Source: a phage. From it: a stretch of 64,000 nt of DNA. A program made the position numbers and the translations under genes. Each line of letters begins with the position of its first letter. Positions within the stretch are counted from its first letter, which is position 1. Below, piece by piece: positions 7,082-39,144 of this stretch. Location of the stretch: NCBI GenBank assembly GCA_014435945.1, contig GCA_014435945.1_4088.1, one strand, 5' to 3'. The notes beneath the pieces were generated by a model, which worked only from the letters and a program-made list of their open reading frames with translations, was not told where the DNA came from and searched no databases.

Positions 7082-7333
7082 ATGAAAGTACTGACAGAAT
7101 TAGAAATGTATCATAGATTTAACAAGTACTATCATTTACTTAAACCTATACAGAGGATTAAGTGTCCCTTTGTAGTGAAACAGGTATTAATTTATGAGCA
7201 TAAGTTATTTGTATCATTAGGTACGAATGAACAAGAGTATTATTTGAAGTTGTACTTAATTACATTAATAGATTTAATTCACTATAAAACCACACAATCC
7301 AAACAAGCTAATAAAGAGAAATATGAAAACTAA
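7082..7333 (+). CDS. small protein, tandem paralog family 1
   Basis: motif LGTNEQEYY; start moved to ATG just after upstream stop (ORF-track start 7049). Confidence 0.6.
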   Translation: MKVLTELEMYHRFNKYYHLLKPIQRIKCPFVVKQVLIYEHKLFVSLGTNEQEYYLKLYLITLIDLIHYKTTQSKQANKEKYEN

Positions 7334-7661
7334 TATACAACTCAAGGTTTATAAATCATTTGCAAGTACATACATCAAATGCTATACATGTAACTATGTA
7401 ATGGACTACAAAGGTAAGCCATTTACACTTACTTACGATAATACAAGAGGTTTTTATATATCTTTTGCTGATTACAAATATAACATATACGAACACATTG
7501 ACATTGAAGATTTAAGTACTTTATCACCAGAGGAATACTTTCAGGAATCGTTAGTATGGGATTTGGAGTTTCCTATGCCATTAGTACATAAAATGGTAGT
7601 CCAAATGAAAGAAGCTAAACCGGAGTTTAACGGTTATGAAGAATACACAATTGAGTATTAA
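7323..7661 (+). CDS. hypothetical protein, paralog family 2 (acidic-FQ-S motif)
   Basis: motif PEEYFQESLVWD. Confidence 0.65.
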   Translation: MKTNIQLKVYKSFASTYIKCYTCNYVMDYKGKPFTLTYDNTRGFYISFADYKYNIYEHIDIEDLSTLSPEEYFQESLVWDLEFPMPLVHKMVVQMKEAKPEFNGYEEYTIEY

Positions 7662-7877
7662 ATGAAAAGATTATCATACGAAGATTACACCAATCTTATC
7701 AGGACTTTACAACCAGAAATTAAAAGAATTAATTCTCTTCCTATATCTAATGAAGAATGTTCAGTACTGAAAGATGAGTTAATCTTAAAACACACAGTAG
7801 GAACAAACTATCAAGCAGATAGTGTTCGATATTTAATTTGGGGGTTGATGTGTCAAATAAAGTCCAGACAAGCTTGA
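7662..7877 (+). CDS. small protein, tandem paralog family 1
   Basis: motif VGTNYQADS; ATG directly follows upstream TAA. Confidence 0.65.
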   Translation: MKRLSYEDYTNLIRTLQPEIKRINSLPISNEECSVLKDELILKHTVGTNYQADSVRYLIWGLMCQIKSRQA

Positions 7878-7932
7878 CAGTACTCTTCATTACTGCTATA
7901 GTACACTAACGTTAATCATTAGGGTAAAAATT

Positions 7933-8178
7933 ATGTTAAATTTTTTAAATTTCCTTATCGTCTTGTGTATTGTTCTTGGGATTGCACCATTTGTATTGTA
8001 TTTCATGGATTCAGATGAAATGCAGAAGATGAATTGCACAAGGACAGGACAGAGTAGAGAAGAGACGATTCTTATGCCTGTTACGGTTATTGTTAACAAC
8101 ATGCCCATTACAAACATGGTCCCTACCCTAACGACAACGTACCAGTACTCTTGTACAGACGGAGAGAGGTGGAGATAA
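7933..8178 (+). CDS. small membrane protein (one N-terminal TM helix)
   Basis: hydrophobic N-terminus LNFLIVLCIVLGIAPFVLYF. Confidence 0.55.
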   Translation: MLNFLNFLIVLCIVLGIAPFVLYFMDSDEMQKMNCTRTGQSREETILMPVTVIVNNMPITNMVPTLTTTYQYSCTDGERWR

Positions 8179-8501
8179 TGTGTAAGTTCAATTGTATTGT
8201 ACGTAAGAATTCATGTTACATTGTAGTAGCTGATTTTAATACAGGTTCTGGGTTGAAGATATTTGAGTACAGAAAATGCAATAATTCTTTTCATTGGAAA
8301 TTGGGTGCAAGAAAAACAAAAACAATTTCAGTACCGAATTTATGTTCTATCTCTGAAGAAGAAGAGTTTCAGTACTTGTTAGTACATGATGATTCTTTAG
8401 GATTTACATTCGAAGACATGAAGGAAGTACAAAAGCAGATGATTGCACATTGTCATCTTCCAAAGAATTTTGTTCAACGCGTATGTGAATTCTACATATA
8501 A
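8178..8501 (+). CDS. hypothetical protein, paralog family 2
   Basis: motif EEEEFQYLLVHDD; start at ATG overlapping upstream TAA with GGAG RBS (ORF-track start 8151). Confidence 0.6.
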   Translation: MCKFNCIVRKNSCYIVVADFNTGSGLKIFEYRKCNNSFHWKLGARKTKTISVPNLCSISEEEEFQYLLVHDDSLGFTFEDMKEVQKQMIAHCHLPKNFVQRVCEFYI

Positions 8502-8510
8502 GAGAAGAAT

Positions 8511-8822
8511 ATGAAATTTAATATAGCAAAAACATCGAGTATATGTATTTTTGGTTATGCAGAAGAGTTAGGTGATATTGACATTCTTTTGTACAAAAAG
8601 GATGGTGTTATGCATTTCAAGTACCAGGATGAAGAGGCAGACAATTATCTTTTACCTAATTTAGTACAAATGCAGGAAGAGGAATTATTCCAGTACAGCT
8701 TAATATACGACATTGATATTTGCACGATGCCAGTATTAATTAGTATTCAAAAAGTGATGCTCGATATGTATGATAAGCTAATACAAGGTATGTCAGGGAG
8801 GATCATTGAAATTGACATATAA
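8511..8822 (+). CDS. hypothetical protein, paralog family 2
   Basis: motif QEEELFQYSLIYD. Confidence 0.65.
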   Translation: MKFNIAKTSSICIFGYAEELGDIDILLYKKDGVMHFKYQDEEADNYLLPNLVQMQEEELFQYSLIYDIDICTMPVLISIQKVMLDMYDKLIQGMSGRIIEIDI

Positions 8823-8850
8823 GAATATACCTAAAGGAGATGCAATATAA

Positions 8851-9102
8851 ATGTACAAAAAAATAAACCGTTATTTGTATGCATCAAAGTACAGGGATTT
8901 TTGTTTACGAGGGGGAGAGGAAGATTTTGCTCTGAGGTTATCGGAATTTAATATGTTATTTTATCTTGGGTCAAAAGAACAAGAAGATACAGTACAGAAA
9001 TTTCTCAATCATCTTGTACAAAAAATTAATATGCAAATTTTGATGCTTAAGTTACAGGATGAGATAAATGAATATGAATCCAGAAATAGTTCAGGATCTT
9101 AA
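8851..9102 (+). CDS. small protein, family-1-like
   Basis: degenerate motif YLGSKEQEDT; AGGAG RBS. Confidence 0.55.
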   Translation: MYKKINRYLYASKYRDFCLRGGEEDFALRLSEFNMLFYLGSKEQEDTVQKFLNHLVQKINMQILMLKLQDEINEYESRNSSGS

Positions 9103-9779: not shown

Positions 9780-9790
9780 GGAATACCAAT

Positions 9791-10120: not shown

Positions 10121-10121
10121 T

Positions 10122-10682
10122 ATGAATGATATTGAGTTATTGGTACATAAGATTTGCACAATATCGTTAGTGCTGAACAATGCGAATACAGTACAGAGTT
10201 CCCTTTTAAGAATTAATAAAGTTGGGAGTAGTTTATATTTGGAAGTAAAAGCTGGTTTTGCAGGTCAGTACAATGATAAAATCAAAGAAGAAGTTAAGGG
10301 AAGTGAAGATGCTTTCATTGAGGTTTGTGCAACAGTTGGTTCAAATCCAATTTCAGTATCACCGTTAATGCGAAATGAAAATTCAGAATTTAATTCCATT
10401 TTTGAAGGTTATTTGTGGTATAATGCTGGAGATGATTATTTTATATATCAGAATTCCAAAACGGATTACAGTGAAGAAGGTATAAAATTCATTGATCCTT
10501 ACAATGAAGCAGAAGTATTTCAGACATCCCTAATATACAATGCAAATCAAATGAAGTATCTTATGTTGTTTAGTACAATGCATTTGAATCCATTGAAAGA
10601 TAATTTAAAATTTTTCATTCGTTTAGAATTAGTTGATATTGCTTATGATCTTTTAATGCAAGGATACAGTTATGAAGTATAA
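10122..10682 (+). CDS. hypothetical protein, paralog family 2
   Basis: motif EAEVFQTSLIYNA; C-terminus LLMQGYSYEV shared with 10759..11265. Confidence 0.65.
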   Translation: MNDIELLVHKICTISLVLNNANTVQSSLLRINKVGSSLYLEVKAGFAGQYNDKIKEEVKGSEDAFIEVCATVGSNPISVSPLMRNENSEFNSIFEGYLWYNAGDDYFIYQNSKTDYSEEGIKFIDPYNEAEVFQTSLIYNANQMKYLMLFSTMHLNPLKDNLKFFIRLELVDIAYDLLMQGYSYEV

Positions 10683-10758: not shown

Positions 10759-11265
10759 ATGAATGAGATAGAATTATTAGCACACAAGATTAGTACAGTA
10801 ATGCTTATGCTCAAGAATAATCATTCTATGCATAAGTACATTTTTATAGGTGATTTACGCATAGAAGATAGATATGATAAATTATCGTTTATGTTTAAAG
10901 ATGAAAGTAATGCAAAAGTTTGTTTTGCAGCATTTGCCCAAGGCAATCCAGAACAAGCATCTCCTGTTATATACGAAAATAGTGAAGGGTATTTGTGGGT
11001 CAACACAAACGATTATTTCTTTTATGTTTTGAAACAAGATGATGAAGTAGAAGCACGAATTGATTTAATTGATATTAGTACAGATTGTAGTGCTGAATTA
11101 TTTCAGAAATCGTTATTATACAGTCCTCGTCAAATACATTATCTAAAGTTATTCAGTTCATTGTACGCGAATCCTTTAATTAAGGGTTTTAAATTTTATA
11201 TCAAAATTCCGCACCTTTCAAACGTTTATGATTTATTAATGCAAGGATATAGTTATGAAGTATAA
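10759..11265 (+). CDS. hypothetical protein, paralog family 2
   Basis: motif SAELFQKSLLYSP; ends LLMQGYSYEV. Confidence 0.65.
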   Translation: MNEIELLAHKISTVMLMLKNNHSMHKYIFIGDLRIEDRYDKLSFMFKDESNAKVCFAAFAQGNPEQASPVIYENSEGYLWVNTNDYFFYVLKQDDEVEARIDLIDISTDCSAELFQKSLLYSPRQIHYLKLFSSLYANPLIKGFKFYIKIPHLSNVYDLLMQGYSYEV

Positions 11266-11566
11266 AATGCTTTATACATTAACATTAATATATGTAGAAT
11301 TAGAATCCGATTCAGATGCATGGAATTTGGTTAAAGAGGTCGATACCAATCAATGGTACATGGCAAATTTAGACGCACAGGTTGTTACGGATTATTTTAT
11401 AGATTTTAATACATTATCTGAAGAAGAATTTTTCCAAATGCAATTGGTGGTTGACATGTACGGGCATGACATGGTAACATTACGAAATATACAGAAAGCC
11501 GTTAATGAAATCCAAAGCAAGAAAGATTATGAGGTAGGAGAGTATTATGAGATCGACGTACAGTGA
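11255..11566 (+). CDS. hypothetical protein, paralog family 2
   Basis: motif SEEEFFQMQLVVD. Confidence 0.65.
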   Translation: MKYKMLYTLTLIYVELESDSDAWNLVKEVDTNQWYMANLDAQVVTDYFIDFNTLSEEEFFQMQLVVDMYGHDMVTLRNIQKAVNEIQSKKDYEVGEYYEIDVQ

Positions 11567-11904
11567 AAGCAATGAGTACAATAGTTATGATATATAAAAT
11601 GCTTTATACAGTATCGGGGATATATGTAGAATTAGAACCCGATTATCCAGATGGATGGAATTTTATTAAACGCTCCGATAGAAATACATGGCAAATGGAA
11701 CATTTGGATAATGACGTAATATTAGACAATTTTGTGGATTTTAATACATTATCAGAAGAAGAATTCTTCCAAATGCAATGTGTGCTTGACACAAAAGGAT
11801 TTGATGTGCTATTATTAAAGAATATACAGAAAGCTGTTAACGAATTAATATCCAATGACGAGTTAGGCAAAGTGAGGCTGTTCCATGATCTCGAAGTACA
11901 ATGA
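11563..11904 (+). CDS. hypothetical protein, paralog family 2
   Basis: motif SEEEFFQMQCVLD; close paralog of previous gene. Confidence 0.65.
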   Translation: MKAMSTIVMIYKMLYTVSGIYVELEPDYPDGWNFIKRSDRNTWQMEHLDNDVILDNFVDFNTLSEEEFFQMQCVLDTKGFDVLLLKNIQKAVNELISNDELGKVRLFHDLEVQ

Positions 11905-12460
11905 AAGCAATGAGTACAATGAAATTCAGTACACCTACGCTAATGCAATCCTTATGGGACAAAAGTTAGCTTGTATTGTTGCAGCCTTATATAATGCACA
12001 GAAAGATTACAAGCGTCACATCCACAAATGTATTGGTATTATTCCATCGAAGTACAATACATATATTGCGTGCACGAGTCATTTTGATAAACGATTCAAT
12101 ACACCTGATACCCCAAATGCCCATAGTGTTATTGGTCTTTTGGATTTTGCCCCTGGTGCTGTTATTGGAAAGAATGATTTAGAGTACGCATGGTATAATA
12201 AAAATGCCCCGTTAGTAATGGTAAAATATGATACAGAAACGAACAAAGCAATAGAGTACAATACATATAAATCAGAGGAAGAATTTTTCCAAGGTTCATT
12301 GCTTGTACCAGTGCGATTGTTATTTTATAATGTCATAATGAGTACAGTACACGATAGTCCATTACACAAGAATCACAAAATTAATTTCAATTTTTGTGCT
12401 TATGCGATTGATGGTGTTTATGAGTGCTTAATGGAGGTATTGAGTTATGAAGCTGAATAA
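11885..12460 (+). CDS. hypothetical protein, paralog family 2
   Basis: motif SEEEFFQGSLLVP. Confidence 0.65.
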   Translation: MISKYNESNEYNEIQYTYANAILMGQKLACIVAALYNAQKDYKRHIHKCIGIIPSKYNTYIACTSHFDKRFNTPDTPNAHSVIGLLDFAPGAVIGKNDLEYAWYNKNAPLVMVKYDTETNKAIEYNTYKSEEEFFQGSLLVPVRLLFYNVIMSTVHDSPLHKNHKINFNFCAYAIDGVYECLMEVLSYEAE

Positions 12461-12788
12461 TACATTTGATATTAAGAAGTTAAGAGAATGGTTTTATAGT
12501 ATTGAAATTGAAGCCATTCCTTATCATAGATATGAACAAAGTGATTTACAAAGTATTGATATCAGAGAGTTGTACAAATATTATCAGAGTGCATTAGAGA
12601 TGCATAAGTTATTTTTGAGTACAAATTTCATCCTAAATTACAATTTTGAGGAATTTAATAATTATAATTTAGTACAGAAATATGTAGTAGCAAAGTACAT
12701 GTACAATCAAGGTATCAAAGGTTGCCTCGAATTCAATACCGTTCTTATTTTAGTTGAGGTAATTTTATGCACCGCATGTCTGATTTAG
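12447..12788 (+). CDS. hypothetical protein
   Basis: ORF in series; only a degenerate motif (NFEEFNNYNLV). Confidence 0.5.
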   Translation: MKLNNTFDIKKLREWFYSIEIEAIPYHRYEQSDLQSIDIRELYKYYQSALEMHKLFLSTNFILNYNFEEFNNYNLVQKYVVAKYMYNQGIKGCLEFNTVLILVEVILCTACLI

Positions 12789-13264
12789 AGTTCAGTTTAG
12801 ATGCAGCCTTTAAATTTGTTCACAAAATAGAAACAATATATCGTACATTATGTGCAATAACATCAGTATCAAAAGAGTTTGATGTTGGTGAAAGGTATCA
12901 GGTGTGGAATAATTCATTTTATAATAAAGAACATTCTGCGACGGCATTTTATATTTTAGCATTTAATCCCAGCAATTGTTACCCAGAGAAGCATGAACGT
13001 TATCCAAATGACGACATGTGGTTTGAGTACAAAGAAGATGCTGATATGTCGTCAATTGTAGTTCCTGATGATTTTAATGCACAAGATTTAACAGAAGAGT
13101 GGTGGTTCCAGCAGAATTTAGTACATGATGATATTGATTTATTTTTCTATATAGTGTTTAAAATGCTTTATCACAACAATATAGTTAAAGAAAGTTTATC
13201 GTTTTCATGTCTATATATTGATGATTTGTACAATGAAATTCAAATAAACATGCCTGTATCGTAA
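12767..13264 (+). CDS. hypothetical protein, paralog family 2
   Basis: motif TEEWWFQQNLVHDD. Confidence 0.65.
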   Translation: MHRMSDLEFSLDAAFKFVHKIETIYRTLCAITSVSKEFDVGERYQVWNNSFYNKEHSATAFYILAFNPSNCYPEKHERYPNDDMWFEYKEDADMSSIVVPDDFNAQDLTEEWWFQQNLVHDDIDLFFYIVFKMLYHNNIVKESLSFSCLYIDDLYNEIQINMPVS

Positions 13265-13282: not shown

Positions 13283-13311
13283 TTGACACGAGTACAAATG
13301 CATGGTACAAT
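13283..13311 (+). promoter_or_regulatory. sigma70-like promoter
   Basis: TTGACA 13283-13288, 17-nt spacer, TACAAT 13306-13311. Confidence 0.5.
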
Positions 13312-13337
13312 GTGTAATCATTTTTAAGGAGATACCT

Positions 13338-13886
13338 ATGGAAAATTTTAAAATACCAGATGATTTCAATTCAGTACAAGAGATGGTACACAAGGTTCAT
13401 TACATTTTTAATGAATTAATTATTGCCAATTCATCCAGTATGCAAATTGAGTTAAAGGATATTGATAGAGAAGAAGTTTTTTTGGGTTCCCCAAATTCAA
13501 TCATTCCTTTTTATGGTCAGGACCGTTTATGGTTCATGAGAGATACCCCAATTGACAAATACAAAATACAAAACAAATCAGAGAATGATTTTTCTTATTA
13601 TTATCTTAAAATTTCATTACAAGTACAAGATATTAGTGCAATGGGTGAAATAAGTGCAGAGGATTATTTTCAGTACAGTACATTGCATAGTCCAGAAGAA
13701 ATCTTTGTTGCTATGCTCGTTGCAAAATTGAGCACAGTTGATTTTGGGACATACCCACATAAATCATTCAAGATTATTATTCCTGCATTCGTCGATCTTT
13801 ATGATTTCATTGTGCACAAGAAAGAAAGTACAGTGTACGATATGTATCGTTCAAATTTCAGTATGATTACAGGGGCATTAAAATGA
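13338..13886 (+). CDS. hypothetical protein, paralog family 2
   Basis: motif AEDYFQYSTLHSP; start at ATG with AAGGAG RBS (ORF-track start 13302 lies in promoter). Confidence 0.65.
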   Translation: MENFKIPDDFNSVQEMVHKVHYIFNELIIANSSSMQIELKDIDREEVFLGSPNSIIPFYGQDRLWFMRDTPIDKYKIQNKSENDFSYYYLKISLQVQDISAMGEISAEDYFQYSTLHSPEEIFVAMLVAKLSTVDFGTYPHKSFKIIIPAFVDLYDFIVHKKESTVYDMYRSNFSMITGALK

Positions 13887-14491
13887 ACATAGATCAATTA
13901 ATGAAGTACAGTACAAATGCAATTCCAGTGCTAAGTAAAGCATTAGATGCATTCAATGCTAAGTACCCTGAAGGTTCAGAGTTAAATATTCCTTTTACCA
14001 CAGAGGGGATTGTTGATACGTACATTGTAAACATCAGTAGTACAGGTATTGTTTTGAAGCAGAAGTACGGCGAAGGTGAATATTATGGATTGAAGCTGGA
14101 TAATATTTCAGGAGAGAAAACACCTTATGAGTTTTGGGTTCCGAATAACATTGAGTCATGGAAAACAAATATTAATAAGAGAGACGAAAGAAATTTACCT
14201 CTTGTACAAAATAATGAAAAAAGAATTGACGTATTTTATTATTACAGTACAGACCAGTTTCCAGAAGAGATTTATTTAAATTCAGAGGTGCATGAAGATA
14301 TTGAATCATTTTTCTTTCAGTTATCATTGGTACAGGATATCATGCCTGTGCAAATGTTCAGGGATGAAATAAATTTAGCGAAAGAGATTTCGGATATGTT
14401 ACCTGAATTTAGTGTTCTTTATGGTAGTAGAGCTTTACCTGAAAATGTATACAAAGAATTTATTTCCATTGTTAAAGGGTTGAATATATAA
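13883..14491 (+). CDS. hypothetical protein, paralog family 2
   Basis: motif IESFFFQLSLVQD. Confidence 0.65.
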   Translation: MNIDQLMKYSTNAIPVLSKALDAFNAKYPEGSELNIPFTTEGIVDTYIVNISSTGIVLKQKYGEGEYYGLKLDNISGEKTPYEFWVPNNIESWKTNINKRDERNLPLVQNNEKRIDVFYYYSTDQFPEEIYLNSEVHEDIESFFFQLSLVQDIMPVQMFRDEINLAKEISDMLPEFSVLYGSRALPENVYKEFISIVKGLNI

Positions 14492-14492: not shown

Positions 14493-14687
14493 ATGACCGC
14501 CTATGATATCAAACAAAGGCATACGAAGTTTGATTTGTTCACATACCAATTCCACAATGATATAGTGAATTTTAACATCAATGCGTCATTGCATCCTACA
14601 TCACAAGATGATTTTGACAACAGAGTGCTTAACATAGTGGTGCTTTTGTGTTATAATCATTTCAGTGAATATTTTAACACAAGATAA
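14493..14687 (+). CDS. hypothetical small protein
   Basis: ORF in series; no family motif. Confidence 0.45.
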   Translation: MTAYDIKQRHTKFDLFTYQFHNDIVNFNINASLHPTSQDDFDNRVLNIVVLLCYNHFSEYFNTR

Positions 14688-14700
14688 GGTTGAGGCACAC

Positions 14701-15560: not shown

Positions 15561-15570
15561 GGAAAGTACA

Positions 15571-23900: not shown

Positions 23901-23907
23901 GGTTAGT

Positions 23908-31597: not shown

Positions 31598-32149
31598 ATG
31601 AATCAAAGTCATGATCTTTTTAAATTATGTGCATCCAAAGATGTGGAAGGATGGGCAGATAAAATCAATACAATTATTAACCGTTATCTTGGCTTCTGTG
31701 CACGTTCACGAAGTGAAGGTTCAATGCGTTTCCAAATAACCATGACAATCGATGGTGTTACGATTTATGTCAACGAAGAACGTCTTGGTATTAATCTCTA
31801 TGATAGTTGTGTCTTTGCTATTCACCAGAAAATGGGGGCAGGTTGGGGTTGTAATAATATGAACACCAATGCTTTTTTCTGGGTAGGTCATAGCAACACA
31901 GTACTTGATCCTTCAAAGAAATCAAACCTTTTAGATGATAATTTGGTATATGATTTAGCTTACTCTGAAGAACAACATTTCCAGTTAAGTACAATACATA
32001 GCTTAGTTCAATATGAAGATTGTATCAAAGCATTAGAATTATGCCATTCACTTGAACTTAAAGAAAAATTGATACAAATTTACCCATTGTTCTTCCATGA
32101 AGAAGTACAATGCACACTAGATCATATTTTATATGGGTACGACAAATGA
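31598..32149 (+). CDS. hypothetical protein, paralog family 2 (FQLSTIH subgroup)
   Basis: motif SEEQHFQLSTIHSL. Confidence 0.65.
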   Translation: MNQSHDLFKLCASKDVEGWADKINTIINRYLGFCARSRSEGSMRFQITMTIDGVTIYVNEERLGINLYDSCVFAIHQKMGAGWGCNNMNTNAFFWVGHSNTVLDPSKKSNLLDDNLVYDLAYSEEQHFQLSTIHSLVQYEDCIKALELCHSLELKEKLIQIYPLFFHEEVQCTLDHILYGYDK

Positions 32150-32748
32150 GAAAAAGTTATCAAGAAGCTATTGACCTAATTCGAGAAGTTATTAAGGTGG
32201 CTCCTGGTGCGATAGCATTCAAGAAGTCCCTATATAAAAAGTATGGCTCTATGTCAAGTATGTGCTGTCAAAAGAAACGTAGTAAATTCACTACGCAGTA
32301 CTGGCACGATTCTATTATCCTGAGTAATGAACATCAGCGTATTTTAACAATCGAATCAGTAGATAATCAATATGGTGAAGGAATGATTTGTGTTCCTGAC
32401 TATGATGAAATTAATTTCAATTGTGGAGATTATGAGACAACATTATTATTACACGAGGGTTACCCTGAAGGTGATGTAATGGCAGAGTATAATCCAAAAA
32501 CCAAAATACTGAAACATGGTATGCAGTTCAAAATCAATAATAAAGATGATGTGGAAGCAGCACTAATGCAACTTAGTACTAGTGAACCTATCACTATTGA
32601 TGTAGAAGAGTTATGGGGCATCATTTCAGTACTTAATGAGTGTTATAAAATTAAATCATTACATAAGTACTCTATCATTTTACATACTAATTGTGCAATG
32701 ATAAAATGCAAGAACATACAAGAGATGGTGGTTCCAGATGAACTTTAA
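32146..32748 (+). CDS. hypothetical protein (family-2-like, motif degenerate)
   Basis: DVEAALMQLSTSEP; start at ATGA overlap (ORF-track start 32110). Confidence 0.5.
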   Translation: MRKSYQEAIDLIREVIKVAPGAIAFKKSLYKKYGSMSSMCCQKKRSKFTTQYWHDSIILSNEHQRILTIESVDNQYGEGMICVPDYDEINFNCGDYETTLLLHEGYPEGDVMAEYNPKTKILKHGMQFKINNKDDVEAALMQLSTSEPITIDVEELWGIISVLNECYKIKSLHKYSIILHTNCAMIKCKNIQEMVVPDEL

Positions 32749-33322
32749 AGAAATAGAAAGTAAAATTAAGTACTTCAAAGATATTAAAAAACTTTGGGAA
32801 AAGTATAAAATTGATTATCAGTTCCAAGATGATGATACGGTTCAAAGCATTGATATTAATATTCGTGTGAAGTTCAAGAATGGCAATTATGGCGAAGTTA
32901 AATTGAATGCTATTGGTGTATTCCTTAAGGATTATGATGGTTCTTCACTCGCTCAATTCGATTTCACACCTGATCCTGATGATATGTTATTGAGTGAAGT
33001 CAATGCATATGACCTTGAGATGTTTAATGGTAAACCTTTACTATTCCGCTTATCAGATGAATGGGATGAGATTTACTACACATACAAAGATGGTGTGATT
33101 CGAGACGTAAATGATGAAGTAGTAAATGATATGGAAGAACGTCTATTTCAAGAATCATGTGTGTCATCGGAGTCATATACATATCAATATCTACTTGACA
33201 TGTTCGATTTGTATAGTAAAATAGATTCAGAAATGAGTACATTGGGTATTCATTATCTTACAATCAACGACTTTGCACAACTTGAAACAGCGGTTAAAGC
33301 CCTGGTCAAAGTACTGAAATAG
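32738..33322 (+). CDS. hypothetical protein, paralog family 2
   Basis: motif MEERLFQESCVSSES. Confidence 0.6.
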   Translation: MNFKEIESKIKYFKDIKKLWEKYKIDYQFQDDDTVQSIDINIRVKFKNGNYGEVKLNAIGVFLKDYDGSSLAQFDFTPDPDDMLLSEVNAYDLEMFNGKPLLFRLSDEWDEIYYTYKDGVIRDVNDEVVNDMEERLFQESCVSSESYTYQYLLDMFDLYSKIDSEMSTLGIHYLTINDFAQLETAVKALVKVLK

Positions 33323-33331: not shown

Positions 33332-33745
33332 ATGAAACTGTATCATGCGAGTACTGTAAAAATTGATAACTTTTATATCCCGTATGGTGGCCTTCATATG
33401 GGAGGTAAACACAGTGCTTTAGAAGCTGCATTACGCAAACTGAGAAGCCCACTAAACGTCGTTGACGCTGATACAGTATACTTGCATACATTAGAAGTTG
33501 ATGTTGATAACGTGCTTCTATGGACGGATATGGGCAGTGATGATGAATGGCGTGGAGTGATTGAGTACTGCGAAATTAACGGCTATGATGCAGTTCAGTA
33601 CCAAAACGATTACGAACCAGATACAGTTCCTAGCTATATGATTTGGGATACGTCTAAGGTTCGCATTATTGAAGTTGATGCGATGCATATGGATGAAGCT
33701 GAAATGATCATCGAAGATTTCCTTGATGAATATGAAGGTGTATAA
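33332..33745 (+). CDS. hypothetical protein (137 aa), not a family-2 member
   Basis: AGGAATGAATA RBS region; visibly GC-richer than neighbours; no FQ motif. Confidence 0.6.
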   Translation: MKLYHASTVKIDNFYIPYGGLHMGGKHSALEAALRKLRSPLNVVDADTVYLHTLEVDVDNVLLWTDMGSDDEWRGVIEYCEINGYDAVQYQNDYEPDTVPSYMIWDTSKVRIIEVDAMHMDEAEMIIEDFLDEYEGV

Positions 33746-34263
33746 TGATTGAACCTATGACAGTACTAGCACGTACTAAATTATTATTGAAGATTGGTGA
33801 GATATTCACTGATATTTTGTACAGTGGGATTGATATACATGAATTAGGCATTAAGCAACCGTGGGAAATAACCAAGTTCTCTGCGTTCTATCGTTTATCA
33901 TATAAAGGGGAAACGGTTCTGGACTGGAACCCCAAAGCCAAATTCATGGAATATGCGGCGTTATATGGAAGCAATGGTGGTATAACAAATAATTTTAAAG
34001 AAATTAAAGTCCTAATTGGGTCAAAGGAATTTAATGATCTACTATATCCAGAATTTAAGTTAACAGAAGAATTAATATTTCAGTACTCATTGATTTTAAA
34101 AGATCTTAATGATTTAAAGTACTACAAAGAGTTAGTAGATATTTTTATTAATACTCGACTTTCAAAAGATATTGTGATATTCTGGTATGTTGAGTATGTT
34201 ACAGAGGAATTGCTTGAAGAATTTCTTCTAAATATGACAGCAATCAAGGAGAAGTTATGTTAG
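33745..34263 (+). CDS. hypothetical protein, paralog family 2
   Basis: motif TEELIFQYSLILKD. Confidence 0.65.
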   Translation: MIEPMTVLARTKLLLKIGEIFTDILYSGIDIHELGIKQPWEITKFSAFYRLSYKGETVLDWNPKAKFMEYAALYGSNGGITNNFKEIKVLIGSKEFNDLLYPEFKLTEELIFQYSLILKDLNDLKYYKELVDIFINTRLSKDIVIFWYVEYVTEELLEEFLLNMTAIKEKLC

Positions 34264-34730
34264 ATATTTTAGGAAACATCGATACAGCAAATTATTTTAT
34301 TCAAGATGCACTGTTCAATACAGTACAGAAAGGGTTGGATGTACGATGTAATATCCATCAGGGAGATGGGTATTTTGTTGATATCACTGAAACACGCAAG
34401 AACGTGTTCAATTTAAACATTACAACATTAGCACGTCAGAACATTGCACGTATTTTGGTCAATAAAGATGAAGTAGTTCTTCGTTATAATTCCAAATTCT
34501 TGTTCACATACAAGAAGAAGACTGACATGTTCAGTACTAATTTGTTTGATGAACCCTTCAATCTGGAAGACTTAGAAGCAACTTTCTTTACACAGAACAC
34601 TATGCTGAAATTCAATGATGTTGAATTTTCATCAGAAGTAATGTCTGAAACACTACAAATGGTTAAGGTAGTATTCTATGCTTTTCAACAGTTTAACGAA
34701 GAACGAAACAAGGTTAACAACAACAGATGA
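34257..34730 (+). CDS. hypothetical protein (family-2-like, motif degenerate)
   Basis: LEATFFTQNTMLKF at the equivalent position. Confidence 0.5.
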   Translation: MLDILGNIDTANYFIQDALFNTVQKGLDVRCNIHQGDGYFVDITETRKNVFNLNITTLARQNIARILVNKDEVVLRYNSKFLFTYKKKTDMFSTNLFDEPFNLEDLEATFFTQNTMLKFNDVEFSSEVMSETLQMVKVVFYAFQQFNEERNKVNNNR

Positions 34731-34743
34731 ACTAATCGCGGCG

Positions 34744-35091
34744 ATGGGAGCCAATGAGAAATACTTCAATGGGATTCATTTTTTTAAAACGGATCTTAGT
34801 GAAAGTAAAGTACTATATGTGTATGGTTCCCAGTACTGCATTGTTACAAAGCACCCCGACGCGATTTCACTAAAATTTAATACTTATTCAAAAAACTTCT
34901 TGACGATTAATAAAAGCAATGTTACTATGTCTGGTATAGGGAATCAGGTTGTTGAGATTCCTTTGGACTCAATTGATTCTATTGAGTTCTTTCAATACGA
35001 GTGCTTAGGTGTTGATTTTGGTACGGTCAGTACTGAATCTATGCGAACATTAATTAATCTACTTAAAGGTAAAGTTCATGCTTTTAACTAA
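34744..35091 (+). CDS. hypothetical protein, paralog family 2
   Basis: motif SIEFFQYECLGVD; start at first ATG after upstream stop (ORF-track start 34678); weak RBS. Confidence 0.5.
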   Translation: MGANEKYFNGIHFFKTDLSESKVLYVYGSQYCIVTKHPDAISLKFNTYSKNFLTINKSNVTMSGIGNQVVEIPLDSIDSIEFFQYECLGVDFGTVSTESMRTLINLLKGKVHAFN

Positions 35092-35578
35092 TTCGATGAA
35101 GAATTCATTTAAAATTATCAAAGAAATACTAAATGGTTCTAAAAATCATAGTGGGTCTTCCTTTACTAGTGACCAGATCCAACACAGTACAAAGGATTGT
35201 ACTGTAATCTTTGGGTTACATAGTCTGCGTTTGACAATAGTAAATAATATTGATAACACAGCAATTGTAATCACCCCATGTCATATTCAGAATGAAACTG
35301 GTGTATACTTACACCACATGGGGACTGTATTCTACATCTTCAATACTGAAGAAAATATTGTTAAAGAATACAACACACTCAATGTTGATGCGGGTGAGTT
35401 ATTTCAATTGAGTACTGTCAATGATTGTAACTTCAGTGACAATGCAGAAGTACTTCCATTGTTTCTAAGTCTTCTCAATAACATGGAAAAACTAACCACT
35501 GCATACAACAAAAATGACGTACCGCAAGCAGTATTGAATATCACCGAAGCAATGGAGAAATACAAAGCTGTGACCTAA
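35078..35578 (+). CDS. hypothetical protein, paralog family 2
   Basis: motif DAGELFQLSTVNDC. Confidence 0.6.
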   Translation: MLLTNSMKNSFKIIKEILNGSKNHSGSSFTSDQIQHSTKDCTVIFGLHSLRLTIVNNIDNTAIVITPCHIQNETGVYLHHMGTVFYIFNTEENIVKEYNTLNVDAGELFQLSTVNDCNFSDNAEVLPLFLSLLNNMEKLTTAYNKNDVPQAVLNITEAMEKYKAVT

Positions 35579-36228: not shown

Positions 36229-36261
36229 TTTTTTGTCCGAAATTTAGGAGATTGTATTACT

Positions 36262-37110: not shown

Positions 37111-37126
37111 TTATGGAGGATTTGGT

Positions 37127-37420: not shown

Positions 37421-37427
37421 TAAAATA

Positions 37428-37458
37428 TTGTGGACATAACAATTCCTTGTGATATAAT
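37428..37458 (+). promoter_or_regulatory. sigma70-like promoter
   Basis: TTGTGG 37428-37433, TG-extended TATAAT 37453-37458. Confidence 0.45.
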
Positions 37459-37491
37459 GTTCACATCTTTTTTTGATAAATGGAGATATAG

Positions 37492-37878
37492 ATGAATACA
37501 AGTTCTGTTCTAAAAGCGATTGGTGGTGTACTTCTGATTGAAGTCCAGGGTGAACCTAAGCTATGTTGCTTAGAAGACATGAAGAATACTAAACACTTCA
37601 GTACTGGACAGATTTTCAATGCTATTCGTGTTCTTAACGACAAATCAGTACAAGACTATGGAAAGGTATGGCCTTCGTATGTAAATCCTGAAGGTGAAAT
37701 TAGTGCTGATTGGAAAACAATTGAAGCAGTACGTGTGAGTTGTGAGAGCGATTGGGATTTCATCGTTGAAGTATGTGACCAACTGCAAGAAGATGTGCCA
37801 GAGATTGTCGAACGTAAAGAAGTTCTTGCACAACTTGATAAATTCCGTCACGGTACTCTACCGTATGACGTAATCTAA
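37492..37878 (+). CDS. hypothetical protein (128 aa)
   Basis: ORF with GGAGA RBS. Confidence 0.6.
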   Translation: MNTSSVLKAIGGVLLIEVQGEPKLCCLEDMKNTKHFSTGQIFNAIRVLNDKSVQDYGKVWPSYVNPEGEISADWKTIEAVRVSCESDWDFIVEVCDQLQEDVPEIVERKEVLAQLDKFRHGTLPYDVI

Positions 37879-37929
37879 TCTGATTTATTAAAAACTATCT
37901 AACTAACATTATATAAAAAGGAATTTAAA

Positions 37930-38235
37930 ATGGAAGACAACGGAATGAAATTTGATATGTTTGAAGGTGTACCAGAGTTCGATTTCAATAAACTTGAAAA
38001 TGGTGAAGAATCAGAACTAGTAAGTGTTACACTAAAATCAGATACCAAAAAGAAATATTCCCCATCAGTTCGTTCACGTTCTCAAGAAGAATATGAAACC
38101 TTCATTGATAGTATTCATTACGAAACGTTCCATCATGCAGATGGTACTCCGTATGAAGTTCGTGTTACAGTACTGAAGCCTGAAGTAAACCCAATGGAAA
38201 ATCTACGTCCTGTTTACTGCTGGGCAAGCCACTAA
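37930..38235 (+). CDS. hypothetical protein (101 aa)
   Basis: ORF with AAAGGAA RBS. Confidence 0.6.
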   Translation: MEDNGMKFDMFEGVPEFDFNKLENGEESELVSVTLKSDTKKKYSPSVRSRSQEEYETFIDSIHYETFHHADGTPYEVRVTVLKPEVNPMENLRPVYCWASH

Positions 38236-38241
38236 TAAACC

Positions 38242-38276
38242 AAAGGACGGGATATAATATCTCGTCCTTTTTTTGT
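38242..38276 (+). terminator. rho-independent terminator
   Basis: long hairpin AAAGGACGGGAT...ATCTCGTCCTTT followed by a T7 run. Confidence 0.65.
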
Positions 38277-38286
38277 CTGGAGATAT

Positions 38287-39144
38287 ATGAAACTTTATCT
38301 AATCGTTGACTACAGTAAGGGTTATTATGACTACGCAGAAGAATCTGAAGGGTATTGCTCGTCTACTAATGTCAATGTACGCACCAGTAATACACATGAG
38401 CATGAATCTATTACAAACCTAAAAGATTTCATCGCATATCGAGCATTTGAAAAGAATTTCTGTCGTAGTAGATATTCGAAGTTTGAGTACCCGTTGATTG
38501 ATGTTCCTGATGAATTGATGTTCCAGTTAATGCTCACTGGAGTACAAGATTATGATTACATCGCGTACAATCACATTACTAAGAAAATTTATATCGGTAC
38601 GTCAACACATGACATTTCTATGTATGCATCATGCCCGGATGATCGAATGAAGGATAGAAATTCACGAAATTCATACAGTAGTGGTTCAGTTGGTTTAAAT
38701 GATGCATTAAATAAAAATTTATTCTTTGAGTACGAGTTTGATAATCATCGAAGGAAAAAAGACCGAGAAGATTATTGTACTGAAATTGATAGTACCAATG
38801 GATATGAAGAAGTGAAAGAAGCGTTAATGCCATATATCCTTGACAAGTACTACAAAGATTTTCAGTACTGTAGTAATTTTCTAATCCGAAATTCTATCAT
38901 AATCGGTCGTCAAAGTACTGCATTCTCTAAGTACTACAATGATTCCCCTGTTGCTGAAAATGAAAACTGTAATGTTCTCTCAATCCCACGTGAAGATATG
39001 GTATTCATGTTCACATCTTTCATTGAAGATGATGAGTTGTATGTAAAAAACAAGCACAGGTTCATGCCAAGTAAGATTGAGGTTATGAGAAGCTTAAGTG
39101 CAGATATCTTAACGAATTTCACTGAAAAAACAGAATACAACTGA
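38287..39144 (+). CDS. hypothetical protein (285 aa) with family-2 motif
   Basis: motif PDELMFQLMLTGVQD. Confidence 0.6.
   Translation: MKLYLIVDYSKGYYDYAEESEGYCSSTNVNVRTSNTHEHESITNLKDFIAYRAFEKNFCRSRYSKFEYPLIDVPDELMFQLMLTGVQDYDYIAYNHITKKIYIGTSTHDISMYASCPDDRMKDRNSRNSYSSGSVGLNDALNKNLFFEYEFDNHRRKKDREDYCTEIDSTNGYEEVKEALMPYILDKYYKDFQYCSNFLIRNSIIIGRQSTAFSKYYNDSPVAENENCNVLSIPREDMVFMFTSFIEDDELYVKNKHRFMPSKIEVMRSLSADILTNFTEKTEYN

What the first reader, a model, noticed from the sequence alone, without database searches (positions are those of the whole stretch)
7323..39144. About 30 kb of diversified paralogs sharing an acidic-aromatic-FQ-x-S/T motif
Roughly 50 consecutive + strand genes (100-210 aa) carry the same short motif at an equivalent position about 40-60 residues from the C-terminus, for example SEEYYFQNSTVY, EAELFQESLVFDKKY, SEEEFFQYSLIYD and GEEQYFQLSTIH, with little conservation elsewhere. 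Sub-clusters of near-identical neighbours (17275/17631; 18159/18626/19069/19535; 31005/31598) and a truncated remnant point to ongoing tandem duplication and divergence. I recognise no known domain; the scale suggests a diversifying effector or decoy set (host takeover or anti-defence), but that is inference. The motif resembles the potyvirus NIa (TEV) protease site ExxYxQ then S/G, including exact-pattern matches such as EEGYFQGS and EEMYFQGS; this is probably convergent, but a position-conserved recognition or processing site is testable, and the window also encodes a ClpP-family protease.
Basis: seen in the sequence. Interest (0 to 1): 0.85.

Follow-up and report, generated by a model that had tools for sequence, protein, structure and literature searches.

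The report
Jumbo-phage early gene family, FQ motif
A giant E. coli phage spends about 28 kb on some 42 diverged copies of one small protein of unknown function and apparently new fold; the copies are probably made early in infection to act on the host, and their shared "FQ" motif is a core part of the fold rather than a protease cutting site.

Summary
The window comes from an Asteriusvirus (PBECO4/121Q-like, "Rak2-like") jumbo coliphage and starts about 1 kb before the end of the left terminal repeat. The paralog family is real. 42 + strand ORFs (7323-35578, 103-206 aa) fit one profile, 39 of them in leave-one-out tests. F and Q are invariant, inside [ST]-E-E-x-[YLF]-F-Q-x-S-[LT]-[VIL]-[YHFW]-[DN], 32-71 residues from the C-terminus.

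Several details in the finding are wrong. The genes are not consecutive. The most similar pair is 55% identical, not near-identical. The family ends at 35578, not 39144. I found no truncated remnant.

The family has no Pfam, NCBIfam or PDB match, and its PHROGs are all "unknown function". Confident AlphaFold models place the motif in a folded helix and match no solved fold. Arrays of 42-45 copies occur in other Asteriusvirus genomes, at least 27 in Klebsiella phage RaK2 and at least 24 on an uncultured contig. Orthologs are syntenic with dN/dS about 0.24. Near-consensus sigma-70 promoters are strongly + strand biased (21 versus 1).

Best reading: an early-expressed, non-virion multigene family of diversified binders for host takeover or anti-defence. 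That function is inferred, not shown. The TEV-like cleavage idea is not supported.

The parts
7323..7661 (+). FQ-family member, short form, 112 aa, motif SPEEYFQESLVWD (Q74)
   Evidence: leave-one-out E 7.9e-12; tandemly duplicated in vB_Ec-M-J and fEgEco12
8151..8501 (+). FQ member, short, 116 aa, SEEEEFQYLLVHD
   Evidence: LOO E 3.9e-08
8511..8822 (+). FQ member, short, 103 aa, QEEELFQYSLIYD
   Evidence: LOO E 6.7e-10
10122..10682 (+). FQ member, 186 aa, NEAEVFQTSLIYN
   Evidence: LOO E 7.9e-12; 39% identical to neighbour 10759
10759..11265 (+). FQ member, 168 aa, CSAELFQKSLLYS
   Evidence: LOO E 2e-11
11255..11566 (+). FQ member, short, 103 aa, SEEEFFQMQLVVD
   Evidence: LOO E 7.6e-10; forms the closest pair in the array with 11563 (55% identity)
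11563..11904 (+). FQ member, short, 113 aa, SEEEFFQMQCVLD
   Evidence: LOO E 6e-10
11885..12460 (+). FQ member, 191 aa, SEEEFFQGSLLVP
   Evidence: LOO E 2.6e-10; phrog_19795
12767..13264 (+). FQ member, 165 aa, TEEWWFQQNLVHD
   Evidence: LOO E 1.7e-06
13302..13886 (+). FQ member, 194 aa, SAEDYFQYSTLHS
   Evidence: LOO E 1.1e-07
13883..14491 (+). FQ member (borderline), 202 aa, IESFFFQLSLVQD
   Evidence: in the iterated HMM set but not recovered in leave-one-out
14665..15219 (+). FQ member, 184 aa, DEAAYFQQSLIDA
   Evidence: LOO E 5.5e-13; phrog_28680
15505..16125 (+). FQ member, 206 aa, SEEMLFQYKTVHT
   Evidence: LOO E 6.2e-07
16865..17278 (+). FQ member, short, 137 aa, DDAALFQESLVFD
   Evidence: LOO E 1.7e-09
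17275..17634 (+). FQ member, short, 119 aa, DEAELFQESLVFD; the short form that was modelled
   Evidence: LOO E 5.1e-17; AlphaFold pLDDT 72, motif in helix 66-75
17631..17975 (+). FQ member, short, 114 aa, GEAEIFQESLIFD
   Evidence: LOO E 2.7e-14; 50% identical to 17275
18159..18629 (+). FQ member, 156 aa, SEEFYFQQNTIYE
   Evidence: LOO E 1.1e-11
18626..19066 (+). FQ member, 146 aa, TEEYYFQQSLIFN
   Evidence: LOO E 3e-14
19069..19557 (+). FQ member, 162 aa, SEEYYFQNSTVYN; the long form that was modelled
   Evidence: AlphaFold pLDDT 88.5, pTM 0.84, motif in helix 109-115; no PDB fold match; phrog_9317
19535..19978 (+). FQ member, 147 aa, SEEYYFQNSTLYD
   Evidence: LOO E 3.8e-19
19975..20289 (+). 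FQ member, short, 104 aa, HETFLFQESLIWD
   Evidence: LOO E 5.7e-05
20289..20732 (+). FQ member, 147 aa, SEYAYFQYSTIYP
   Evidence: LOO E 6.7e-09
20729..21175 (+). FQ member, 148 aa, TEEGYFQGSTVYN (one of two window members fitting the TEV pattern)
   Evidence: LOO E 6.7e-15
21172..21705 (+). probable divergent FQ member, 177 aa, FEEQCFQLSCTDP
   Evidence: HMM E 8e-4 with --max; hhalign probability 70%
22018..22614 (+). FQ member, 198 aa, TEENIFQNSLMWD
   Evidence: LOO E 1.4e-07
23213..23572 (+). FQ member, short, 119 aa, QEDELFQESLVWD
   Evidence: LOO E 6e-10
23562..23900 (+). FQ member, short, 112 aa, DTGELFQESLVLD
   Evidence: LOO E 2.3e-05
23851..24441 (+). FQ member, 196 aa, NEENYFQQSLLNT
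   Evidence: LOO E 6.3e-09
24501..24983 (+). FQ member, 160 aa, SEEEFFQYSTLYN
   Evidence: LOO E 1.5e-13
24980..25462 (+). FQ member, 160 aa, TEEMYFQGSCIHD (fits the TEV pattern)
   Evidence: LOO E 7.6e-16; tblastn finds it in 45 phage records, all Escherichia, Klebsiella or Salmonella jumbo phages
25455..25817 (+). FQ member, short, 120 aa, SEEELFQESTVNT
   Evidence: LOO E 1.8e-12
25801..26214 (+). FQ member, short, 137 aa, TPDELFQYSLVLP
   Evidence: LOO E 6.1e-06
26202..26696 (+). FQ member, 164 aa, SEESYFQNSLIYT
   Evidence: LOO E 1.1e-15; phrog_34017
27219..27776 (+). FQ member, 185 aa, LESVMFQHMLIHK
   Evidence: LOO E 2.9e-05; reciprocal best hit in RaK2
27703..28287 (+). FQ member, 194 aa, TDEVQFQLSTICD
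   Evidence: LOO E 2.1e-10
28938..29522 (+). FQ member (marginal), 194 aa, REGYIFQRSVLDN
   Evidence: LOO E 0.016; phrog_36945
29509..30087 (+). FQ member, 192 aa, VDEELFQMSTVIP
   Evidence: LOO E 1.9e-07; reciprocal best hit in RaK2
30087..30515 (+). possible divergent member that has lost the FQ motif, 142 aa
   Evidence: HMM built from window plus RaK2 members, E 0.0046; hhalign probability 12%
30512..31018 (+). probable divergent member, 168 aa, IEENEFQNNTLSS
   Evidence: hhalign probability 56%
31005..31586 (+). FQ member, 193 aa, GEEQYFQLSTIHE
   Evidence: LOO E 7.7e-08; phrog_34636
31598..32149 (+). FQ member, 183 aa, SEEQHFQLSTIHS
   Evidence: LOO E 6.5e-04
32738..33322 (+). FQ member, 194 aa, MEERLFQESCVSS
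   Evidence: LOO E 6.6e-07
33745..34263 (+). FQ member, 172 aa, TEELIFQYSLILK
   Evidence: LOO E 5.6e-05
34678..35091 (+). FQ member (borderline), 137 aa, DSIEFFQYECLGV
   Evidence: in the iterated set, not recovered in leave-one-out
35078..35578 (+). last FQ member, 166 aa, DAGELFQLSTVND
   Evidence: LOO E 3.2e-05; reciprocal best hit with the last RaK2 array member
7874..7902 (+). near-consensus sigma-70 promoter (TTGACA-17-TATAGT); the other eight in the array start at 9312, 11786, 13283, 14629, 24438, 28319, 29410 and 33195
   Evidence: 21 sites with at least 11 of 12 matches on the + strand, 1 on the - strand, 2.8 expected per strand; the same bias in SP27, RaK2, fEgEco12 and L006
13252..13273 (+). 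terminator-like hairpin with a T run, directly followed by the promoter at 13283-13311 and the gene at 13302
1..1083 (.). end of the left direct terminal repeat; the two paralog arrays start just inside it
   Evidence: the DTR annotated in vB_Ec-M-J ends at record position 21525, which maps to about window 1083; the termini of sister phage fEgEco12 were verified experimentally (PMC13070987)

Best explanation
The array is a clade-specific multigene family, here called the FQ family, found in Rak2-like jumbo phages. Its members are small (about 100-200 aa), soluble, mostly acidic, single-domain alpha+beta proteins.

Shown:
- They are real genes under purifying selection that arose by old tandem duplications.
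- They lie immediately inside the left terminal repeat, all on one strand, tightly packed and often with overlapping stop and start codons.
- They are interspersed with strong, strand-biased sigma-70-type promoters.
- They share one predicted fold that matches no solved structure.
- The [ST]-E-E-x-aromatic-F-Q-x-S-hydrophobic motif forms the N-capped helix and following turn at the centre of that fold. It is not an exposed linker.

Inferred:
- Host RNA polymerase transcribes them early in infection.
- They are not virion components.
- Each paralog uses the common scaffold, with highly diverged sheet surfaces and N-terminal extensions, to bind a different host or competitor protein. The array would then serve as a repertoire for host takeover or anti-defence, comparable to the multigene families at the genome ends of large eukaryotic DNA viruses.
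- The invariant F-Q is most simply a structural keystone. It may also act as a shared contact site.
For: Family and motif.

Coding and selection: 38 of 42 members have syntenic reciprocal-best orthologs in SP27. Median dN/dS is 0.24, against 0.225 for 55 other genes in the window. It is 0.17 in the motif segment and about 0.29-0.30 on either side.

Stable but not frozen repertoire: 42, 43, 42 and 45 copies in four Asteriusvirus genomes; at least 27 in RaK2 at the syntenic position upstream of dam, rnlA and pseT; at least 24 in 20 kb of an uncultured contig. 15 window-RaK2 reciprocal best hits are colinear in the 3' half of the array.

Fast protein divergence: FQ orthologs are 20-50% identical between the window and RaK2, where ClpP is 70%. 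The median is 82% against SP27, where ClpP is 96% against PBECO4, the type phage of SP27's species.

Early expression (indirect): 21 near-consensus sigma-70 promoters on the + strand versus 1 on the - strand, with 2.8 expected; 9 lie inside the array. The same bias appears in four related loci. The equivalent region of phage CBB was proposed to be the early, host-takeover region on the same grounds (PMC5259590). Terminal-repeat genes of the distant relative PA5oct are early by RNA-seq (PMC7318152).

Not in the virion: the 62-protein phAPEC6 virion proteome lists nothing between gp347 and gp549, and a family member is gp442c.

Physical properties: median pI 4.9, with no hydrophobic segments evident.
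Against: - There is no experimental datum on any member: no expression, interaction or phenotype data.
- Gene-level and region-level dN/dS give no sign of positive selection, which an arms-race repertoire might be expected to show. Site-level tests were not done.
- PA5oct, the only relative with RNA-seq data, shows no FQ member in the first 50 kb of its genome, the only part searched. Early timing is therefore extrapolated from promoters and position.
- Which genome end enters the cell first is unknown.
- Absolute invariance of a polar Gln in more than 200 sequences is stronger than a purely structural role usually requires.
- The 'new fold' claim rests on predicted models built from only 42 paralogs, and the AFDB library could not be searched.
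Confidence: 0.5

Rival explanations
1. Adaptor model. The invariant EE-x-aromatic-F-Q-x-S helix is a docking element for one common partner, such as the phage's own ClpP, a host AAA+ protease or RNA polymerase. The variable remainder of each paralog recruits a different target to that hub, in the way F-box, BC-box or poxvirus PRANC families work.
For: F and Q are absolutely invariant in 69 of 69 aligned members and in a 132-sequence alignment, while mean column identity is 8-12%. The motif segment has the lowest dN/dS, 0.17. A ClpP homolog with intact Ser/His/Asp motifs lies in the same + strand, promoter-rich (presumed early) region and is conserved at 65-70% identity across phages that also carry the family.
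Against: The motif has a helix N-cap signature followed by hydrophobic residues and sits in the best-predicted part of the domain, as a core element would. Co-occurrence with ClpP only reflects membership of the same clade. No partner has been identified. ClpP needs an unfoldase, and I did not look for one.
Confidence: 0.12
2. A phage-internal role rather than host interaction. For example, the paralogs could be chaperones or regulators of phage processes, or partners of the co-located ~70-aa basic family, forming acidic/basic pairs.
For: Two large families lie side by side and are partly interspersed in every genome examined: 31 small versus 42 FQ here, 12 versus 27 in the RaK2 locus, 6 versus 24 in L006. 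Their charges are opposite, with median pI 8.1 versus 4.9.
Against: Copy numbers are not matched one to one. The two families sit mostly in separate blocks. There is no sequence relationship between them. No interaction test was possible.
Confidence: 0.1
3. Largely dispensable filler. Tandem duplication expanded the genome to fill an enlarged capsid (the ratchet model of Hua et al. 2017), and the copies are drifting.
For: [quoted passage not shown] Sequence divergence is very high. Closest paralogs tend to be neighbours.
Against: dN/dS is 0.24, like other genes. No pseudogenes or fragments were found. ORFs are intact and syntenic in four genomes. Orthologs are retained between two genera. Strong promoters are maintained.
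Confidence: 0.08
4. Processing-site model. The E-x-x-Y-F-Q motif is a conserved cleavage or recognition site for a site-specific protease, as for potyvirus NIa/TEV.
For: The strings resemble ENLYFQ|G/S. E at P6 is present in 53 of 69 members and Q at P1 in 69 of 69. Four members fit the full pattern.
Against: The conserved Ser is at P2', and P1' is variable (Y, E, Q, L, N, G). Tyr at P3 occurs in only 20 of 69. The motif lies in a helix at pLDDT about 95-97 inside the domain, and cleavage there would split the fold. Pfam scans of the family members and of the ~30 other window ORFs that were scanned found no 3C/NIa-type protease. The one window protease found is a ClpP, which by established knowledge is not sequence-specific.
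Confidence: 0.03

Closest known systems
Multigene families at the genome ends of large eukaryotic DNA viruses (ASFV MGF110/360/505; poxvirus Bcl-2-like and ankyrin/PRANC families). Comparison from general knowledge.
   Same: Dozens of tandem paralogs lie next to a terminal repeat. They share one fold, sequence identity has fallen to 10-20%, and copy number varies between strains. Each copy is retained by selection. The proposed role is binding different host defence or signalling proteins.
   Different: The fold is unrelated and the host is a bacterium. No target is known for any member. Early expression and host interaction are inferred here, not shown.
Early or host-takeover gene clusters in or next to the terminal repeats of large virulent phages (T5 pre-early genes, SPO1 host-takeover module, Kayvirus tre genes; the proposed early region of Rak2-like phage CBB, PMC5259590).
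   Same: Position next to a long direct terminal repeat, a single orientation, many short ORFs of unknown function, and strong host-type sigma-70 promoters.
   Different: Those clusters consist mostly of unrelated genes. Here about 70% of a 28 kb stretch is one family with 42-45 copies.
[quoted passage not shown]
   Same: The same phenomenon and, for 121Q, the same phage genus. The existence of paralog arrays in these genomes is already in the literature.
   Different: I found no paper that describes this family, its motif, its fold or its spread across Rak2-like genera. The 121Q remark probably fits the ~70-aa family better ('very similar', more than 30 copies), but which array was meant is not stated.
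Bacterial polyimmunity loci: tandem arrays of diverged immunity proteins such as the SUKH superfamily (general knowledge: Zhang, Iyer, Aravind 2011-2012).
   Same: Arrays of small, acidic, cytoplasmic, single-domain proteins with a common fold and very low identity. This is a plausible functional analogy: each copy neutralises a different toxin or effector.
Potyvirus NIa (TEV) protease recognition site E-x-x-Y-x-Q|S/G.
   Same: Acidic residue at P6, aromatic at P3 in a minority of members, F at P2 and Q at P1.
   Different: The register is wrong for the conserved Ser (P2' rather than P1'). The motif is buried in a folded helix. No cognate protease was found among the ORFs scanned. 65 of 69 members fail the pattern.

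Membership tests
TEV/NIa-type cleavage site | Sequence pattern E-x-x-Y-x-Q followed by S or G at P1' | tested here: not met
   Only 2 of 42 window members and 2 of 27 RaK2 members fit. The conserved Ser is at +2, and +1 is variable.
TEV/NIa-type cleavage site | The site lies in an exposed, flexible linker between domains or at a terminus | tested here: not met
   The motif is helix 109-115 (pLDDT about 97) in the long form and helix 66-75 in the short form, between the sheet and the C-terminal helix. These are predicted models only.
TEV/NIa-type cleavage site | A cognate chymotrypsin-like (3C/NIa) cysteine protease is encoded | tested here: inconclusive
   None found in the Pfam scans run, which covered the 42 family members and ~30 other window ORFs. 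The only protease found in the window is ClpP, PF00574. The rest of the roughly 370 kb genome was not scanned. Related genomes are annotated with ClpP and a T4-type prohead protease only.
TEV/NIa-type cleavage site | Cleavage products exist | not testable with these tools
   This needs proteomics of infected cells.
SUKH / polyimmunity immunity proteins | SUKH-type domain detectable by profile (SMI1_KNR4 and related Pfam models) | tested here: not met
   No such hit in any of the 42 members at E up to 1.
SUKH / polyimmunity immunity proteins | SUKH fold | tested here: not met
SUKH / polyimmunity immunity proteins | Tandem array of diverged small cytoplasmic paralogs | tested here: met
   42 members, mean column identity 12%, median pI 4.9. 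This shows resemblance in architecture only, not membership.
Viral terminal multigene family (as a kind of system) | Many tandem paralogs next to a genome terminus or terminal repeat | tested here: met
   The array starts about 6 kb inside the end of the left DTR. The smaller family starts about 100 bp after the DTR end.
Viral terminal multigene family (as a kind of system) | Copy-number and content variation between related viruses, with retention under selection | tested here: met
   42 to 45 copies, mosaic ortholog identity of 42-100%, dN/dS 0.24.
Viral terminal multigene family (as a kind of system) | Members antagonise host defence or determine host range | not testable with these tools
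   No functional data exist. This needs deletion mutants and interaction screens.
Early (host RNA polymerase-dependent) phage genes | Sigma-70 consensus promoters in the sense orientation | tested here: met
   21 versus 1 sites with at least 11 of 12 matches, 2.8 expected; replicated in four related loci.
Early (host RNA polymerase-dependent) phage genes | Transcripts appear in the first minutes of infection | not testable with these tools
   No RNA-seq was found for any phage carrying the family. No FQ member was found in the first 50 kb of PA5oct, the part searched.
Virion or injected internal proteins | Detected in purified particles | tested here: not met
   The published phAPEC6 virion proteome lists no protein between gp347 and gp549, and family member P0016 is gp442c. 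This is literature evidence for one phage only.

The most novel reading that the evidence does not exclude
The FQ helix is a conserved docking module, and the family is a phage-encoded set of about 40 substrate adaptors. Each adaptor would deliver a different host protein, such as a defence factor, to a common machine, most attractively the phage's own early-region ClpP together with a host unfoldase. That would make it a bacterial-virus counterpart of F-box/PRANC-type targeted degradation.
Probability: 0.07. Interest if true: 0.9.

Novelty: new member of a known kind. Interest (0 to 1): 0.52.

Why it matters
Rak2-like jumbo phages devote about 7% of their genes (20 kb of coding sequence here) to this one family, and another ~30 genes to a second small family. 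Nothing is known about either. If the members are diversified binders of host proteins, the array is a ready-made library of about 40 natural inhibitors on a single, apparently new scaffold. Its targets would map which host functions or defence systems matter to these broad-host-range therapeutic phage candidates. It would also be a clear prokaryotic-virus parallel to the terminal multigene families of poxviruses and ASFV. The invariant F-Q pair gives a simple handle for mutagenesis. If instead the family proves dispensable, it becomes a test case for the idea that duplication fills enlarged capsids.

Tried and rejected
- TEV-like site: rejected on register, on structural context, and because no cognate protease was found among the ORFs scanned.
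- AFDB fold search: the library was unavailable.
- Relationship to the neighbouring ~70-aa 'GTNYQE' family: hhalign probability 0.2%, so unrelated.
They have syntenic counterparts of matching size in RaK2 (ORF441, ORF445).
- Truncated remnants or pseudogenes: none in a six-frame HMM scan.
- Positive selection: not seen at gene or region level.
- Direct expression evidence through PA5oct RNA-seq: no FQ member was found in the first 50 kb searched.
- The search for related loci with the family alignment failed because no stretch was conserved enough. A second word-indexed homolog search with 132 sequences added little.
- Beta-clamp-binding motif: from memory, Q-x-S-L-[VIL] resembles motifs such as MutS QMSLL or the consensus QL[SD]LF. 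I did not test this. I rate it unlikely (about 2%), because the segment is part of a folded core and 40 clamp binders make little sense.
- Literature: four of the seven searches run returned nothing relevant. One of them, on 'BASEL', was uninformative because the term matches 'baseline'.

Full report
**Provenance.** The window is 96-99% identical to several Asteriusvirus genomes (PBECO4/121Q-like, "Rak2-like" jumbo myoviruses of E. coli). The best match is Escherichia phage vB_Ec-M-J, OQ718158. That record annotates a 21,525-bp direct terminal repeat (DTR), and its end maps to about window position 1083. [quoted passage not shown] Its gene order here is the same. The region in question is therefore the first roughly 6-35 kb of unique sequence inside the left DTR. 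Every gene in the related records over this stretch is annotated "hypothetical protein".

- An HMM seeded on motif-bearing ORFs and iterated on all + strand ORFs of the window converges on 42 ORFs between 7323 and 35578. They are 103-206 aa (median 162) and cover 71% of that 28.3-kb span.
- To avoid circularity I ran leave-one-out profiles. 39 of 42 are recovered at E<1e-3, 28938 is marginal, and 13883 and 34678 are not recovered.
- As an independent test, the window-only profile finds 27 proteins in the syntenic region of Klebsiella phage RaK2, a different genus. A profile from window plus RaK2 members finds 24 in 20 kb of an uncultured contig. All 27 RaK2 proteins and 23 of the 24 on the contig carry FQ.
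- An exhaustive search of 1.84 billion representative proteins finds at least 150 clusters at E<=1e-3. All are 65-215 aa single-domain proteins apart from one spurious repeat protein.
- F and Q are invariant in 69 of 69 aligned members and in a 132-sequence alignment.
- The motif is [ST]-E-E-x-[YLF]-F-Q-x-S-[LT]-[VIL]-[YHFW]-[DN]. Q lies 32-71 residues (median 50) from the C-terminus. Its distance from the N-terminus is bimodal: 60-73 in 12 short forms and 85-153 in the long forms.

- The count is 42 firm members plus a few probable divergent ones (21172, 30512, 30087, 32110, 15216), not about 50.
- The genes are not consecutive. About 24 other ORFs are interspersed, including 4 members of a different family.
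- The family stops at 35578. ORFs 36262-39144 are unrelated.
- The "near-identical" neighbours are 32-50% identical, and the closest pair anywhere is 55%.
- No truncated remnant was detectable in any frame.

**Evolution.**
- The closest paralog is the adjacent family member in 16 of 30 cases, so the family grew by tandem duplication. The duplications are old.
- 38 of 42 members have syntenic reciprocal-best orthologs in phage SP27 (species PBECO4). Copy number is 42, 43, 42 and 45 in four Asteriusvirus genomes.
- 15 members have reciprocal best hits in RaK2, colinear in the 3' half of the array.
- One recent event is visible. The first member (7323-7661) is present as a tandem pair in vB_Ec-M-J and fEgEco12.
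- Ortholog divergence against SP27 is mosaic: 42-100% amino-acid identity and dS from 0 to more than 2. This suggests exchange among phages.
- Selection is purifying. Median dN/dS is 0.24, against 0.225 for 55 other genes of the window. It is 0.17 in the motif segment and 0.29-0.30 on either side.
- The proteins nevertheless evolve fast. Window-RaK2 orthologs are 20-50% identical, where ClpP is 70%.

**What the proteins are.**
- No Pfam, NCBIfam, PADLOC or PDB-sequence match is consistent across members. PHROGs scatter them over at least nine families of unknown function.
- They are soluble and mostly acidic, with median pI 4.9.
- AlphaFold2 with the 42-paralog alignment gives a confident model of the 162-aa member 19069 (pLDDT 88.5, pTM 0.84). 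It has an N-terminal helix, a seven-strand meander and then helices. The motif EEYYFQN forms helix 109-115 in the best-predicted part of the chain.
- The 119-aa short form 17275 gives a three-strand sheet, a helix at 66-75 containing the motif, a long helix and a final strand, after a disordered first 30 residues (pLDDT 72).
- The conserved core is therefore about 85 residues (beta3-alpha-alpha-beta). Long forms add an N-terminal helix and more strands.
- On present evidence this is a clade-restricted fold with no solved relative.

**The motif.** [ST]-E-E at the start of a helix is a typical N-capping arrangement. It is followed by two hydrophobic residues, Q, and a Ser-hydrophobic-hydrophobic-aromatic-Asp stretch. 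Its place in the centre of the domain and its low dN/dS fit a structural keystone. The absolute invariance of Gln leaves room for a shared contact function.

As a TEV-type site it fails. The full pattern occurs in 4 of 69 members. The conserved Ser is at P2' and P1' is variable. The segment is folded rather than a linker. The window's protease (60450-61145) is a bona fide ClpP (PF00574, E 1.3e-41) with Ser/His/Asp motifs. It is conserved at 65-70% identity in RaK2, Serratia BF, Yersinia fHe-Yen9-04, Xanthomonas XbC2 and Salmonella PHA46. By established knowledge, ClpP is not a sequence-specific endoprotease.

**Expression and location.**
- Genes are tightly packed, often with 4-bp stop/start overlaps. 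24 of 42 mechanical starts have a Shine-Dalgarno-like core, against a 14% background.
- Sites matching TTGACA-N16-18-TATAAT in at least 11 of 12 positions number 21 on the + strand and 1 on the - strand, with 2.8 expected per strand. Nine lie in the array, several in the few intergenic gaps, and one directly follows a terminator-like hairpin.
- The same bias holds in SP27 (15:1), RaK2 (14:1), fEgEco12 (14:0) and the uncultured contig (5:1).
- For the related phage CBB, RpoD-like promoters concentrated over short hypothetical ORFs next to the DTR led its authors to propose an early, host-takeover region (PMC5259590).
- In the distant relative PA5oct, DTR genes are early by RNA-seq (PMC7318152). 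No FQ member was found in the first 50 kb of PA5oct, the part searched, so this is only an analogy.
- The phAPEC6 virion proteome contains no protein from this part of the genome.
- Downstream of the array lie Dam methylase, Rnl1 RNA ligase, PNKP, DNA ligase, two metallophosphoesterases, ClpP and dCMP deaminase. RaK2 has the same order.

**Interpretation.** It is shown that this is a real, ancient, selectively maintained multigene family with a common predicted fold and a core motif, sitting in a promoter-rich region next to the terminal repeat. It is inferred that the genes are early, that the proteins are cytoplasmic and non-structural, and that each binds a different partner. The most likely role is host takeover or anti-defence, by analogy with terminal multigene families of large eukaryotic DNA viruses and with phage early regions. 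I put this at about 0.5.

Rivals:
- An adaptor family docking through the FQ helix to a common hub, such as the phage ClpP (0.12).
- A phage-internal role, possibly paired with the neighbouring basic ~70-aa family (0.10).
- Near-neutral filler from duplication, as in the capsid ratchet of Hua et al. (0.08). This is disfavoured by dN/dS, synteny and intact ORFs.
- A protease site (0.03).

[quoted passage not shown] I found no description of this family, its motif, its fold, its size (42-45 copies) or its spread across Rak2-like genera, and no function. It is a new, uncharacterised member of a known kind of feature, the lineage-specific multigene family of a large virus.

**Limits.**
- All functional statements are inference.
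- The models are predictions from a shallow alignment of paralogs.
- dN/dS used a simple Nei-Gojobori pairwise estimate against one genome.
- ORF starts are mechanical.
- The promoter scan is a consensus match.

Noticed in passing
window 1181-7333, plus 7662-7877, 8851-9102, 21674-21901 and 21879-22070: A second, unrelated tandem family of about 31 very small genes (median 74 aa, probably helical, median pI 8.1), with the motif [FLV]-[LIV]-G-T-N-[YF]-Q-E about 20 residues from the C-terminus. It starts about 100 bp after the end of the terminal repeat. It falls in phrog_4148 (unknown function) and has no Pfam match. It is also present in RaK2 (12 in the locus) and in the uncultured contig (6). 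[quoted passage not shown]
   Followed up: partly
whole window, + strand (e.g. 5597, 9312, 24438, 41230, 41953, 43500, 50620, 53687, 58694, 59298, 60272, 60388, 63916): Near-consensus sigma-70 promoters (at least 11 of 12 matches) number 21 on the + strand and 1 on the - strand, with about 2.8 expected per strand. The bias extends beyond the array, through the RNA-repair, ligase and ClpP genes. The same bias appears in SP27, RaK2, fEgEco12 and an uncultured relative.
   Followed up: partly
window 60450-61145: A full-length ClpP homolog (PF00574, E 1.3e-41) with GYAASMG, CHQ and DRD motifs matching the Ser/His/Asp triad. It sits in this + strand, promoter-rich (presumed early) region, separate from the T4-type prohead protease annotated elsewhere in these phages. 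It is 65-70% identical in RaK2, Serratia BF, Yersinia fHe-Yen9-04, Xanthomonas XbC2 and Salmonella PHA46. Some records annotate it as 'head maturation protease', which looks doubtful.
   Followed up: partly
window 40387-40911, 48204-49346, 50169-51101, 54482-55240, 57373-58791, 58811-59602, 63059-63541: Downstream of the arrays lies a block of T4-like early-type functions: Dam methylase, Rnl1 RNA ligase, PNKP kinase-phosphatase, ATP-dependent DNA ligase, two calcineurin-like phosphoesterases and dCMP deaminase. The order dam ... rnlA ... pseT is conserved in RaK2.
   Followed up: partly
window 42662-42931, 43185-43496, 43507-43818, 43781-44065: A third small paralog group: four adjacent 86-103 aa ORFs that are 26-33% identical to each other. 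They fall in phrog_21004 (unknown function) and have no Pfam match.
   Followed up: no
window 7323-7661 versus L001 8023-8717 and L005 8271-8965: The first FQ gene is single in the window but present as a tandem pair in vB_Ec-M-J and fEgEco12. This is a recent duplication or deletion in an otherwise stable array.
   Followed up: partly
P0001 (242 aa; labelled 'Escherichia coli', on a 358,076-bp contig), corresponding to window 16865-17634: In one public assembly, two adjacent family members are read as a single fused 242-aa protein carrying two FQ motifs. Many database homologs are labelled E. coli but sit on contigs of about 350 kb, so they are phage genomes inside bacterial assemblies.
   Followed up: no
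window 46678-47256 and 47253-47942: Two ORFs outside the array carry FQ-like strings (GLPEHFQIGTLYD, SEEEHFQLMMMRA). For 47253 (229 aa), hhalign gives 62% probability over 34 columns around the motif, so it may be a distant outlying relative.
   Followed up: partly
motif positions Q to +4 in the family (e.g. QESLV, QYSLI, QKSLL, QLSLV): From memory, Q-x-S-L-[VIL] resembles bacterial beta-clamp-binding pentapeptides (consensus QL[SD]LF; MutS QMSLL). This is untested and probably coincidental, because the segment is part of the folded core.
   Followed up: no
window 36262-37110 and 38287-39144: Two ORFs of about 283 aa close the array region. They are not similar to each other and fall in phrog_27741 and phrog_15199 (unknown function). 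Counterparts of matching size lie at the same relative position in RaK2 (ORF441, ORF445).
   Followed up: no
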